64,000 nt of DNA from an uncultured Brachyspira sp. (GTDB taxonomy: Bacteria > Cyanobacteriota > Vampirovibrionia > Gastranaerophilales > Gastranaerophilaceae), in the NCBI GenBank assembly GCA_902383995.1, contig CABLZX010000007.1, forward strand, positions 39,702-103,701. The letters are read 5' to 3'. Below, piece by piece: positions 39,001 to 42,000 of this stretch. Position numbers: made by a program. Position 1 is the stretch's first letter. Every line of letters begins with the position of its first letter.

Positions 39001-42000
39001 AAAAAGTGTTGAAGCGCTAATAGACGGAGCCTTTTCACCGGAAGAAGTAAAGGCAAAAATACTTGACAACTTCCGCAGAAAATTATCTGAACCGCTTAAC
39101 TATAACCCTTCAATTCCGCCTGTTTTAAACAGAAATACCAAAAAACTTCCTCCTGACGCAATTGCTCTTCCTGAAAGATTTACTCCTACTAAAAACAGAA
39201 TTAATATGACAGAAATCAAAATACCGGAATTTAAACCGGGACAGAGGTTTGATTTTGAACTTCCAATGAGCTGTGAAGTAAAAATTACAAAGGAAGCGAA
39301 CGGCAAATTTACACCTCAGTCTCTACACGAAACAACAATAACTGAAACATATGCAGATTCTGTAATATGGGATAATGATAAAGTAGCACGTGATATTCTG
39401 CAAAACTTCTATGACGGGCATGGTCAGACACTTGATGGTGTTAAAATGTCTTTTGCACCTCTTCAAAATGGAAAATATAAGGTTAGAATAGAAGGTAAAT
39501 CAACATATACTCCAGATAAAGCCATACTTCTTGGAGAGTCTTCCAAACAGAATGATAATAAAGCTGCCGGAAACTTCGGTGAAGGATTAAAGATGACTGT
39601 TTTGAAAATCCTAAAAGATTCAGGTGCGGAAAGCTTTAATGTCGGCTCGGATGACTGGAAGGTTACCTGGCAGTTTATCTCAGGCAAGCTTAATAATAAA
39701 AGAGTTTTAGGCTATAAGCTCGATAAAGTTGATAAATTCGATGGTAACTACATTGAGTTTGAAACAAACAACAGAACACTTCTAAGATCTTTAAGAAAAA
39801 CAATCAACAGATTTTACCATTCACACAATACTGATTTTAAATGTCCTGATTATGAAAACGGCTTAATCGGCATAAAAATTCTTCCAAAAGATGAACCGGG
39901 GGCATTTTATATAGCCGGACAGCGCTATCAGGTAGCTGATTCATACGAAGGCTTGAAAGGATTAACAGTATTTTTGAAGGAAAAACCTCCTGCGAAAAAG
40001 GGTGACACAATAGTTTTTGATCCTTCCCGCGACAGAACCTCTCTCAACAGCGCCCATCTGAAATCAATAGCTAAGTATATAGCCGAAGACCCTAATATTT
40101 CAAAACAGGAACTAGTAAAAATAATTCACTCTTTAGAAAACTTCTGGGCTGTTTCAGAAAGATATAACCCTAATGAGTATAATTTTCTTGAAGGTATTCT
40201 TTCAGGTGCCAGTACACGTGATTTGCATATAAAATTTCCTGATAAGTATGTTGCACGCACCTTTTATGATTCTCTTGAAATGCTCCAATCCCTTGAAGAA
40301 AGCGGATATGTTGTATGTGCAAGAAGCTTCAGTGATATAGGTATGCCGAATGTAGGCGATTTGCTCACTACTATCAGAAAGCATAAACCGCTTGAACCTA
40401 CTGATATTCAAAAGAAGAAACTTATCCTTATAAAAGAGGGTGTTAAAACCTTTACACCGTATTTGGAAAACAAATATTTTAAACCTGAAGAGCTTGATAC
40501 AAAGATTTATATATTTAACAGGGAAGCTTCCGATGAAAGCCGTTATTATGAATATACTACAGCGGAAGCTATTCTTGACTTTGCCCATTCAGGAGAAACA
40601 TTGTCAAAAGGCTTCTGGATAAATAAGGATTATCTTGACCGCGGCAGCTTTACGGAAATTCTGGGCACTGCTCTGCATGAGCTTTGCCACAAATATGGCG
40701 GTGATGAGTCATCTACTTTCTCTTATAAACTTACCGATATTATTAAAGAACTTATTTCATCCGGTATGAATGATGCTAAAGGCAGAACCCAGCTCCAGCA
40801 GCTTCAAAAGCTATGGGATGAGCTGCCTGTGAATTGTTAATGATTGTAACAGTATATAATTTTTATATAAAAATATGTCAATTTTTTGCAAATAATATTT
40901 TTTATTAAAGTATAAAGAGGTATAATTTCTGTATGGATGAAAAAAAAGAGAGAAAATTAACGGTTATCGAAAGGACAGAAACTGATGTACAAGCTCCTGA
41001 AAAACAGACTGCTTCACGTCAGACAAATCCGATTGTAAAAAAACTGATTTCTTTTCATATGGAAAAAGCTTCAAAATTCAGTGTGAAAGATTTGTTTAAA
41101 AAGTAGCTTTTTAAAACTTATAACGTATTTTGCAAAAGGGCCCGTTGAAAAAATAATCAGTTTTTTCAGTGTTCTTAGAAATATTTTTTTCCGGATAGTT
41201 GCGTTAATATTGGATTTTATATTATCCTTTATGTATTTAACAGGATAATTAAGCATTTGCAGCACCTGAAAGCAGAAAACCGGCGGTATAACAAAGAAAT
41301 CCCCAAGAAATGCTTTGGTTTTGATAAATGGGTTTTTTTTGAATAATAATTTCATGTAAAAGCTTGTTGCAACAAGATGTTCATCTAAGTAAGAGGCGTA
41401 ACTGTAGCCTATTCCTGCCAAAAGCCTTGTAAGCCGGATTTCATATTTATTCACAATGTCAGTGTGCGATTTTTCTTTTTTAATATTTTTCATAAAATGC
41501 CGGAAAGCTGCTTCTTTTATTATCCTTTTGTTGAAAACGATAAAATAGCTCTGTATATGAGGAAGTTTTACCAGATTATTAACCGTCACTCCCCAGAAAT
41601 CCGCATTTCTATGTTCCATATTTATAAACATATCCTCAAATGGAAACACCGGCGCATAGCAGGAATCATTTGCGAAGATGAGTTGTCCGAACTGTTCTAT
41701 ATAATCCCAGCCGAGCATGTTTATAAGTTCCTGCCATGAACCGAAATCATATTTATTATGTTTAAATGCTGAGGCGCTTTTTACATAAGGCTGAATTTTT
41801 GCAATTTCCTTATCCGAAACTTCGCTGTCTGCCATATAGTGTATTTCACATAGCATTGAAAGTTTTTTCAGGTAATAAATTACATAATCAGGTATAATGC
41901 CGTCTTTACAATATCCTGCAAAGAGGCACAGCCTTCTGCCCCCCCCCCCCTATATGAGAGGGTTTGTACAGCTGAGTTTCAGCCGGTTTTGGAGTGACAA

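What the first reader, a model, noticed from the sequence alone, without database searches (positions are those of the whole stretch)
41939..41950. G12 tract (coding strand) 20 codons into an RgpF-like glycosyltransferase gene
On the minus strand, ATG 42010 opens MQKFVTPKPAETQLYKPSHI, then runs into 12 G and terminates 11 codons later. Shifting by one base continues as RRLCLFAGYCKDGIIPDYVIYYLKKL... into the listed ORF 41071..41856, whose sequence fits the rhamnan-synthesis RgpF pattern. Loss of one G (G11) or gain of two gives the full-length enzyme. A homopolymer near the start of a polysaccharide-modifying glycosyltransferase is the classic design of phase-variable surface glycan genes.
Basis: partly seen in the sequence, partly recalled or inferred. 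Interest (0 to 1): 0.72.

Follow-up and report, generated by a model that had tools for sequence, protein, structure and literature searches.

The report
Poly-G switch in a glycosyltransferase gene
A run of 12 G's near the start of a sugar-transferase gene in an uncultured human-gut bacterium behaves as a slippery on/off switch, because other people's gut metagenomes carry the same gene with 11 G's (on) or 12-13 G's (off); the mechanism is classic, but the lineage is little studied.

Summary
A G12 run lies on the minus strand at 41939-41950, 20 codons after ATG 42010. G12 stops translation after 34 codons. G11 or G14 gives a 312-aa RgpF-family (PF05045) GT-A glycosyltransferase.

- In 48 assemblies of the same species (labelled "Brachyspira sp. 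CAG:484", probably Gastranaerophilaceae), the tract is G11 in 27, G12 in 18 and G13 in 3.
- Identical 940-nt flanking haplotypes carry different tract lengths.
- T7/T8/A7 runs in the same contigs never vary, and no allele has any other lesion.
- Two sister species (about 80% nucleotide identity) keep the same layout: promoter, ATG, 20-codon leader, G tract, conserved core. Synonymous sites between them are saturated and core dN/dS is 0.08-0.14.
- The leader plus Gly4 is a disordered, lineage-specific extension that is absent from the wider family.

Two further G/C runs in the window are also out of frame. G10 sits in a 2289-aa protein and G11 in a prepilin-like gene. More such tracts occur in the CAG:484 reference.

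Verdict: this is a real simple-repeat contingency locus, a new member of a known kind. Switching rate, within-sample heterogeneity and the glycan target remain untested.

The parts
42022..42051 (-). Promoter-like site TTTGCA-18 nt-TATAAT in the 43-nt gap after the xerD-like gene. The -10 hexamer ends 11 nt before the ATG, so the 5' UTR would be very short.
   Evidence: Scan (10 of 12 matches). The -10 hexamer and its distance to the ATG are conserved in four lineages. The number of promoter-like hits in the region is not above shuffles, so only the conservation supports this site.
41951..42010 (-). Start codon plus 20-codon leader (MQKFVTPKPAETQLYKPSHI). It is a lineage-specific N-terminal extension.
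   Evidence: Leader length is kept at 20 codons in sister species while its sequence drops to 40-55% identity. It is absent from the wider family, which starts at M(K)KR[LI]CLFAG. It is disordered in the AF2 model, pLDDT below 50.
41939..41950 (-). G12 homopolymer, the switch element. G11 or G14 is in frame (Gly4 or Gly5). G10, G12 and G13 are out of frame.
   Evidence: Lengths 11, 12 and 13 are seen in other assemblies. Three identical flank haplotypes each carry more than one length.
41950..41952 (-). TAG stop in the main-ORF frame, formed by the last codon of the leader (ATA or GTA) plus the first G of the tract. In the G12 state it closes the main frame immediately upstream.
   Evidence: Read. 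It is present in all four lineages.
41906..42010 (-). Truncated reading frame of the OFF state present in this window (34 codons plus stop).
41071..41949 (-). Body of the RgpF-family glycosyltransferase in the frame reached with G11 or G14. It contains a GT-A core (residues about 25-240) and a C-terminal helical region.
   Evidence: translation; PF05045; all family-invariant residues present; AF2 pLDDT 84.7; Foldseek hits to GT-A transferases.
41071..41856 (-). Longest ORF available in the OFF state (261 aa from Met52). It lacks strand beta1 and helix alpha1, including invariant F30, and is predicted to be inactive.

Best explanation
The G tract is a hypermutable simple-sequence repeat that switches translation of an orphan RgpF-family GT-A glycosyltransferase on and off. 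The gene has its own promoter-like site just after the xerD-like gene. Translation starts at ATG 42010 and runs through a 20-codon dispensable leader into the G run. Slipped-strand mispairing during replication changes the run by one G at a time. With 11 or 14 G's the run encodes a Gly4 or Gly5 linker and the ribosome continues into the conserved core beginning RLCLFAGY, giving a 312/313-aa enzyme. With 10, 12 or 13 G's it stops within 10-20 codons. The only remaining start (Met52) would give a protein that lacks the first strand and helix of the nucleotide-binding fold. The window carries the OFF state (G12). By analogy with other such enzymes, the enzyme adds or extends a sugar on a surface glycan such as LPS/O-antigen, capsule or a glycoprotein. 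A clonal population would therefore contain cells with and without that epitope, which hedges against phage, antibody or lectin pressure in the gut. Shown here: the anatomy, the frame logic, the family and fold, the length polymorphism between assemblies on identical backgrounds, purifying selection, and conservation of the cassette across species. Inferred: the slippage mechanism, reversibility and rate, the inactivity of the truncated product, the acceptor glycan and the selective agent.
For: The tract and frame logic are. The tract is far beyond chance, with three runs of 10 or more against 0.005 expected. PF05045 scores 120 bits. All 15 family-invariant residues are kept. The AF2 model has pLDDT 84.7 with residues 1-24 disordered, and its Foldseek hits are GT-A transferases such as B3GalT5, C1GalT1, SpsA and TarP. 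The protein cluster contains 312-aa members and 254/261/266-aa members on dozens of contigs. In DNA the tract is G11 in 27, G12 in 18 and G13 in 3. Identical 940-nt haplotypes split 10/5/1, 7/2 and 7/1 between lengths. Control runs T7, T8 and A7 are invariant in 11-44 of the same assemblies. All 47 orthologue loci whose fetched segment reached the stop keep the 289-codon frame after the tract. Core dN/dS is 0.08-0.14 with dS 1.4-2.3 between species, yet the tract, the 20-codon leader and the -10 to ATG spacing persist. Both ON and OFF states occur in ENA and in Logan assemblies. Two other out-of-frame G runs lie in surface-type genes in the window, and two more lie in prepilin-like genes of the CAG:484 reference.
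Against: No reads were available, so within-sample heterogeneity and the true length in any one assembly, including this window, are unverified. Illumina data are error-prone on G runs of 11 or more. OFF forms dominate. The three commonest 254-aa products are indexed in 113, 90 and 43 blocks, whereas the three commonest 312-aa products occur on about 17, 25 and 13. All six sister-species assemblies are G12, so an ON state has been seen in only one of the species. The gene is not in a polysaccharide cluster, so the target glycan is unknown. My sampling of loci was by protein sequence and is not an unbiased frequency estimate.
Confidence: 0.8

Rival explanations
1. The length differences are sequencing or assembly miscalls at a difficult homopolymer. 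The real gene would then be constitutively in frame, or of one fixed length, and nothing switches.
For: Only consensus assemblies were examined. Seven of 53 contigs end 48-172 nt upstream of the tract, and one scaffold has an N gap next to it, so assemblers struggle here. G runs of 11 or more are a known weak spot of Illumina chemistry (own knowledge).
Against: Three lengths recur across different pipelines and at coverages from about 5x to 42x. T7/T8/A7 runs in the same contigs never vary. The errors needed at the three tracts in the window go in different directions: -1, -1 and +1. A 12-G run kept across species whose synonymous sites are saturated needs selection for the run itself, and that selection is the hallmark of a contingency locus whatever the length in one sample. 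Graph breaks at the tract are equally expected from true heterogeneity.
Confidence: 0.1
2. The gene is a simple pseudogene that was inactivated by a frameshift and is now decaying.
For: The window, the CAG:484 reference and all sister-species assemblies carry the out-of-frame G12. OFF forms are the majority.
Against: Twenty-seven assemblies are in frame. There is no second lesion in the 47 orthologue loci that could be read to the stop. Core dN/dS is 0.08-0.14 over saturated synonymous divergence. All family-invariant residues are kept.
Confidence: 0.03
3. G12 is the normal working state. Full-length enzyme would be made at a low, set level by RNA-polymerase slippage on the G run or by +1 ribosomal frameshifting on GGG codons, so the tract acts as an expression attenuator rather than a heritable switch.
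For: G12 appears to be the modal length in this species and is the only length seen in the two sister species, yet the protein is under strong purifying selection. Long homopolymers are known sites of transcriptional slippage (own knowledge).
Against: Heritable G11 alleles are common and sit on the same haplotypes as G12, which is enough to explain selection on the protein. Known productive slippage sites are mostly A/T runs (own knowledge). No frameshift stimulator was identified, but I did not search for one systematically. The two mechanisms are not mutually exclusive.
Confidence: 0.07

Closest known systems
Poly-G tracts in Neisseria LOS glycosyltransferase genes (lgtA, lgtC, lgtD, lgtG) and the Neisseria phasome
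   Same: A homopolymeric G run inside the 5' part of a glycosyltransferase ORF. Changes of one G toggle the frame. The genes are otherwise intact and conserved. Many surface-related genes per genome carry such runs (PMC5953494; details of the lgt genes are from own knowledge).
   Different: The enzyme family (RgpF/PF05045), the phylum and the lifestyle (uncultured gut commensal) all differ. Here the tract sits in a dedicated, disordered 24-residue N-terminal extension rather than within the enzyme proper. Switching has not been measured.
Campylobacter jejuni poly-G phasome (LOS, capsule and flagellar glycan modification genes)
   Same: An AT-rich genome with a set of long G/C runs that stand out from the background. 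The runs control enzymes that modify surface glycans. Phase state affects phage and host interactions (PMC8437040, PMC8713573, PMC11868660).
   Different: Typical C. jejuni tracts are G8-G11 (own knowledge), whereas here they are G10-G13. The organism is not a pathogen. In this lineage, prepilin-like genes and a 2289-aa protein also carry tracts. No phenotype is known.
Helicobacter pylori fucosyltransferase genes futA/futB/futC with poly-C tracts (own knowledge)
   Same: A homopolymer near the 5' end of a GT gene gives on/off expression of a surface glycan epitope.
   Different: Different enzyme family, and in H. pylori the target glycan (Lewis antigens on LPS) is known.
Streptococcus mutans RgpF, the founding member of PF05045 and a rhamnan-backbone rhamnosyltransferase (own knowledge)
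   Same: Shares the N-terminal GT-A domain. The match covers profile positions 4-201.
   Different: Only the first 40% or so of the 503-position profile is matched. This protein belongs to the short (about 300 aa) subfamily. It is not in an rgp/rml cluster and nothing is known of its sugar donor. RgpF itself is not phase-variable, and the only three papers that mention both RgpF and phase variation do so once each and in neither title nor abstract (not read).
Invertible promoters of Bacteroides capsular polysaccharide loci (PMC11868660)
   Same: Phase-variable surface glycans in a human-gut commensal, readable from metagenomes.
   Different: That mechanism is recombinase-driven DNA inversion. 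Here no inverted repeats flank the promoter even though Xer-type recombinase genes lie nearby.

Membership tests
SSR-mediated phase-variable (contingency) locus | A simple-sequence repeat long enough for slipped-strand mispairing, and over-represented relative to base composition | tested here: met
   G12 is present. Runs of 12 or more are expected 0.0002 times in the window, and three runs of 10 or more are seen against 0.005 expected.
SSR-mediated phase-variable (contingency) locus | The repeat is placed so that unit changes switch expression, either in the ORF or in the promoter | tested here: met
   The tract lies in the ORF at codon 21. G11 and G14 give 312/313 aa. G10, G12 and G13 give 34-43 aa.
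SSR-mediated phase-variable (contingency) locus | Repeat-number polymorphism among very close relatives, faster than flanking substitutions | tested here: met
   Lengths 11, 12 and 13 occur on identical 940-nt haplotypes. Control homopolymers are invariant.
SSR-mediated phase-variable (contingency) locus | The gene is otherwise intact and under purifying selection | tested here: met
   All 47 orthologue loci read to the stop keep the frame after the tract. dN/dS is 0.08-0.14.
SSR-mediated phase-variable (contingency) locus | Mixed repeat lengths within one clonal population | not testable with these tools
   No reads were available. The only hints are indirect: contig ends and an N gap next to the tract.
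SSR-mediated phase-variable (contingency) locus | Reversible, high-frequency switching with a phenotype | not testable with these tools
RgpF family (Pfam PF05045) | Score above the Pfam gathering threshold | tested here: met
   120.4 bits against a cut-off of 25, E 1.2e-34. All 120 listed homologues carry PF05045.
RgpF family (Pfam PF05045) | Family-invariant residues present | tested here: met
   F30, K71, H84, YDFGS 87-91, NDS 114-116, P120, F156, E190 and K230 are all present.
RgpF family (Pfam PF05045) | Full-length two-part architecture of the 503-position model | tested here: not met
   Only profile positions 4-201 are matched. The protein belongs to the roughly 300-aa short form, which is common among the hits. 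It is therefore filed as a short-form family member, not as an RgpF orthologue.
RgpF family (Pfam PF05045) | dTDP-rhamnose-dependent rhamnosyltransferase activity | not testable with these tools
   No rml or other polysaccharide genes lie in the neighbourhood. The donor and acceptor are unknown.
GT-A fold glycosyltransferase | Rossmann-like alpha/beta/alpha core with an acidic motif after the fourth strand | tested here: met
   The AF2 model has pLDDT 84.7 and pTM 0.83. The best Foldseek PDB hits shown are mainly GT-A transferases, although TM is only 0.35-0.45. The invariant NDS motif lies at the end of strand 109-114. The metal-binding role of this motif is inferred.
Recombinase-driven invertible switch | Inverted repeats flanking a promoter or gene segment next to a recombinase | tested here: not met
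   The longest inverted pair is simply the paralogy between the two Xer genes, and nothing flanks the promoter.

The most novel reading that the evidence does not exclude
The tract may be one element of a poly-G phasome in human-gut Gastranaerophilaceae, the non-photosynthetic relatives of cyanobacteria that are mislabelled here as Brachyspira. In this reading, independent G runs in dedicated N-terminal leader cassettes switch a surface glycosyltransferase, several prepilin-like paralogues and a giant 2289-aa protein. This would be the first contingency-locus system described for that phylum. Its ON/OFF states can already be read from public metagenomes, so they could be correlated with host, phage or IgA data for an organism that has never been cultured.
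Probability: 0.5. Interest if true: 0.6.

Novelty: new member of a known kind. Interest (0 to 1): 0.5.

Why it matters
Homopolymer-driven phase variation of glycan-modifying enzymes is textbook biology for a few pathogens (Neisseria, Campylobacter, Helicobacter, Haemophilus). In gut commensals, attention has gone mostly to invertible promoters. This locus shows the same bet-hedging device in an uncultured, poorly understood gut lineage. The evidence here comes from population data rather than from the sequence pattern alone. About 85 kb surveyed contains at least five such tracts, which suggests a sizeable phasome. In practice, gene callers split or truncate these genes into 254-266-aa or 75-aa fragments, so annotation and pangenome pipelines under-count them. 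Tract length in metagenomes could serve as a readable marker of surface state for organisms that cannot be grown.

Tried and rejected
- Invertible-element idea. A xerD-like gene lies directly upstream and a xerC-like gene lies 4 kb away. The inverted-repeat search found only the paralogy between the two genes, so this was rejected.
- P0136 (309 aa, starting MYLLVQGGGG...) looked like an in-frame sister-species allele. Its DNA has G12, and the protein arises only if TAG is read as Gln. It is a gene-caller artefact and not ON evidence.
- PDB sequence search found nothing. Only the fold comparison was informative.
- NCBIfam has no model for this protein.
- Rfam at gathering thresholds found nothing in the window.
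- Literature searches for CAG:484, and for phase variation in Melainabacteria or Gastranaerophilales, found nothing relevant.
- My protein search for the prepilin-like gene mistakenly used only its first 80 residues. It returned a large paralogous family instead of orthologues, so variation at the other two window tracts could not be measured across samples.
- A homopolymer control within the gene itself was not possible because the common haplotypes have no other run of 7 or more there. Flanking runs were used instead.
- The A7/A8 runs in the window's allele are specific to its own haplotype.
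Full report
**1. Observation**

On the minus strand an ATG at 42010 opens MQKFVTPKPAETQLYKPSHI. It is followed by exactly twelve G at 41950-41939.
- In this frame the product is 34 aa, ending ...GGGGQKAVPLCRIL*.
- One base further on, the frame reads GGGGRRLCLFAGYCKDGIIPDYVIYYLKKL... and stays open to the stop at 41071-41073. It contains the listed ORF 41071..41856.
- Rebuilding the gene with different tract lengths gives 42, 312, 34, 43 and 313 codons for G10 to G14. "Lose one G or gain two" is therefore right.

The run is not a chance feature.
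- The window is 35.6% G+C, and a first-order model expects 0.0002 G/C runs of 12 or more.
- G/C run lengths are bimodal: fourteen of 5, none of 6, two of 7, none of 8-9, then 10, 11 and 12.
- The longest A or T run is 9, although A+T is 64%.

**2. The protein**

The rebuilt 312-aa protein matches Pfam RgpF (PF05045) at 120 bits against a cut-off of 25. The match covers only profile positions 4-201 of 503. NCBIfam has no model for it.
- The large protein database returned 293 homologues. All 120 that were listed carry PF05045, in a short form (about 300 aa) and a long form (about 530 aa).
- In an alignment of 33 short-form members, every invariant residue is present in the window protein: F30, K71, H84, YDFGS 87-91, NDS 114-116, P120, F156, E190 and K230.
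- An AlphaFold2 model built on that alignment is confident (pLDDT 84.7, pTM 0.83). The exceptions are residues 1-24 and the last 15 or so.
- Foldseek against the PDB returns mainly GT-A nucleotide-sugar transferases such as B3GalT5, C1GalT1, SpsA, TarP and GT8 members, with modest TM of 0.35-0.45.
- The invariant NDS sits at the end of strand 109-114, where GT-A enzymes carry their DxD-type motif. The functional role of NDS here is my inference.

In the OFF state the longest product starts at Met52. It lacks strand 26-32 and helix 41-50, including invariant F30. I infer that it is inactive.

**3. Organism and neighbourhood**

The closest genome record is "Brachyspira sp. CAG:484" (HF989733.1). 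It is 95.6% identical to the window over 12.9 kb.
- An RpoD 93% identical to the window's is named "Candidatus Gastranaerophilaceae bacterium" by NCBI. Other close hits are just "bacterium".
- G+C of 35.6% fits the 27-41% reported for Gastranaerophilales MAGs (bioRxiv 10.64898/2026.04.24.720558). It does not fit Brachyspira, which is about 28% by my own knowledge.

I therefore treat the organism as an uncultured human-gut member of the Gastranaerophilaceae. That placement rests on one name plus composition and is not proven.

The gene is an orphan among housekeeping genes: rpoD, dnaG, a hybrid kinase, xerC-like, bioD, a 714-aa unknown, then rgpF, xerD-like, a TPR protein, engB and a TolC-like protein. 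Synteny is identical in every related contig.

**4. Population evidence**

The 90%-identity cluster of the orthologue has 63 member sequences. They include 312-aa forms and 254/261/266-aa forms, each seen on up to dozens of contigs.

I fetched DNA for eight of these forms and ran one pattern scan of metagenome contigs.
- Together with the window this gives 48 sequences, two pairs of which may be duplicates. The tract is G11 in 27, G12 in 18 and G13 in 3.
- Every 312-aa call has G11. Every truncated call has G12 or G13, except L035, which has G11 with a scaffold gap just upstream.
- Using 60 nt upstream and 880 nt downstream of the tract, three identical haplotypes each carry several lengths: 10xG11/5xG12/1xG13, 7xG11/2xG12 and 7xG11/1xG12. 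Tract length has therefore changed repeatedly on backgrounds with no substitution.
- Controls: T7, T8 and A7 runs in the flanks are invariant in all 11-44 assemblies that contain them.
- All 47 orthologue loci whose fetched segment reached the stop keep the 289-codon frame after the tract.
- Both states occur in ENA and in Logan assemblies, at coverages from about 5x to 42x.

My sampling was by protein sequence, so these counts are not frequencies. The index suggests OFF is several times commoner. The 254-aa forms are listed in 113, 90 and 43 blocks, against about 17, 25 and 13 for the 312-aa forms.

**5. Conservation across species**

Two sister species are about 79-80% identical in nucleotides and 70-73% in this protein's core. 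They keep the same cassette after the xerD-like stop: a TTGnnn-17/18-TATAAT/TATACT promoter-like site whose -10 ends 11 nt before the ATG, then ATG CAA AAA, a leader of exactly 20 codons, a G run, and the core beginning (R/Y)LCLFAGY.
- Leader sequence has drifted to 40-55% identity.
- The core shows dN/dS of 0.08-0.11 between species, and 0.14 between the window and the CAG:484 reference. Between species dS is 1.4-2.3, that is, saturated.

A 12-G run that survives saturation of synonymous sites must itself be selected.
- All six sister-species assemblies have G12, and G11 would be in frame there too.
- The wider family starts directly at M(K)KR[LI]CLFAG with no leader or Gly run. The leader plus tract is therefore a lineage-specific add-on, disordered in the model, that serves as a switch cassette.
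- A TAG formed by the last leader codon (ATA or GTA) plus the first G closes the main frame just upstream of the tract in all lineages.

**6. Wider pattern**

The two other long G/C runs in the window are also in coding starts and also out of frame.
- G10 at 15277-15286 would, as G11 or G8, fuse a 160-aa ORF to the 2056-aa ORF, giving 2289 aa.
- G11 at 55071-55081 (minus strand) would, as G10 or G13, give a 269-aa prepilin-like protein with an N-terminal methylation motif, behind a strong AGGAGG site.

In the CAG:484 reference, an 8-kb stretch holds two more prepilin-like genes with the same MxN.IIASKS..(R/K)GGG leader and G10 tracts. Relatives elsewhere have in-frame versions of that leader. 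This looks like a phasome of surface genes, as described for Campylobacter and Neisseria (PMC8437040, PMC5953494, PMC11868660).

**7. Mechanism and rivals**

The best explanation (0.8) is a translational on/off switch by slipped-strand changes in the G run. It controls a surface-glycan-modifying GT-A enzyme, and the window is in the OFF state. The slippage, the rate, the reversibility, the target glycan and the selective agent are all inferred.

Rivals:
- Homopolymer miscalls in assemblies (0.1). The evidence for this is that 7 of 53 contigs end 48-172 nt upstream of the tract and one scaffold has an N gap beside it. True heterogeneity predicts the same, and miscalls do not explain conservation of the run.
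- Plain pseudogene (0.03). In-frame alleles, the absence of a second lesion and the low dN/dS contradict this.
- G12 as the working state, with expression by transcriptional slippage or +1 frameshifting (0.07). This is compatible with G12 being modal and cannot be tested here. It is not needed given the common G11 alleles.
- DNA inversion by the neighbouring Xer-type recombinases. Rejected, because no flanking inverted repeats exist.

**8. Novelty**

The mechanism is classic. The enzyme family, the dedicated leader cassette and the host lineage are new for it. I found no paper that links phase variation by repeats to Melainabacteria or Gastranaerophilales. For RgpF, only three papers mention it together with phase variation, each once and in neither title nor abstract (not read).

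I rate it a new member of a known kind, with interest 0.5. It is solidly supported and useful for annotation and for metagenome-based ecology of an uncultured gut lineage, but it would not surprise a specialist in phase variation.

Noticed in passing
window 15277-15286 (+), ORFs 14812-15294 and 15510-21680: A G10 run ends a 160-aa ORF. With G11 or G8 the ORF fuses to the downstream 2056-aa ORF, giving a 2289-aa protein whose only Pfam hit is a weak one to RamC_N. This is a second candidate phase-variable gene, OFF in this window.
   Followed up: partly
window 55071-55081 (-), ATG 55115, ORF 54305-55039: A G11 run lies 11 codons into a prepilin-like gene (N_methyl motif AFTLAEVLITLG) behind an AGGAGG ribosome-binding site. 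G10 or G13 gives a 269/270-aa protein. It is OFF in this window. A second prepilin-like gene without a tract lies at 51863-52555.
   Followed up: partly
L054 (CAG:484 reference contig HF989736.1) 4035-4044 and 5380-5389: Two more prepilin-like genes share the MxN.IIASKS..(R/K)GGG leader and carry G10 tracts. One is in frame at the tract but is shifted downstream by a short duplication of the AFTLAEV-coding segment. The other is OFF, and G9 or G12 would be ON. This suggests a family of individually switchable pilin paralogues.
   Followed up: partly
window 51250-51360 (+) and 55140-55248 (-): A repeat of about 110 nt is present in two copies (83% identical, with conserved ends AAAAAATTCYGCGATAAGGAA ... 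AGGTCTGYTTTTGA). Each copy lies just upstream of a gene start, and one of those genes is the poly-G prepilin-like gene. There is no Rfam match, and the folding z-scores are unremarkable (0.9 and -1.7).
   Followed up: partly
window as a whole; L018: The nearest genome is labelled Brachyspira sp. CAG:484. However, G+C is 35.6% and a 93%-identical RpoD is named Candidatus Gastranaerophilaceae. The Brachyspira label is probably a historical misassignment.
   Followed up: partly
L053 / protein P0136: A database protein (MYLLVQGGGGKPSY...) from a sister species exists only if TAG is translated as Gln across the stop that precedes the G tract. This is a gene-calling artefact that mimics an in-frame allele.
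   Followed up: yes
window about 41180-41190 (A7 run in rgpF); protein P0002: P0002 is the only database protein from the window's own sub-lineage. It has a different C-terminus that equals the window's sequence read in another frame after the A7 run. This is a second homopolymer length difference, seen once on a 2.4-kb contig.
   Followed up: no
L050 (sister species, 2.4x coverage): The start codon of the leader reads AAG instead of ATG in one low-coverage assembly. It could be an error or a start-codon mutation.
   Followed up: no
window 40933-41106 (+): A 57-aa ORF is convergent with rgpF and overlaps its 3' end by 36 nt. It is called as a gene in every related contig and has no Pfam hit.
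   Followed up: no
L015, L016, L021, L028, L029, L039, L053; L035: Seven of 53 contigs, including 45-kb and 62-kb ones, end 48-172 nt upstream of the G tract, and one scaffold has an N gap beside it. Assembly graphs tend to break here, which is consistent with mixed lengths or with poor reads.
   Followed up: partly
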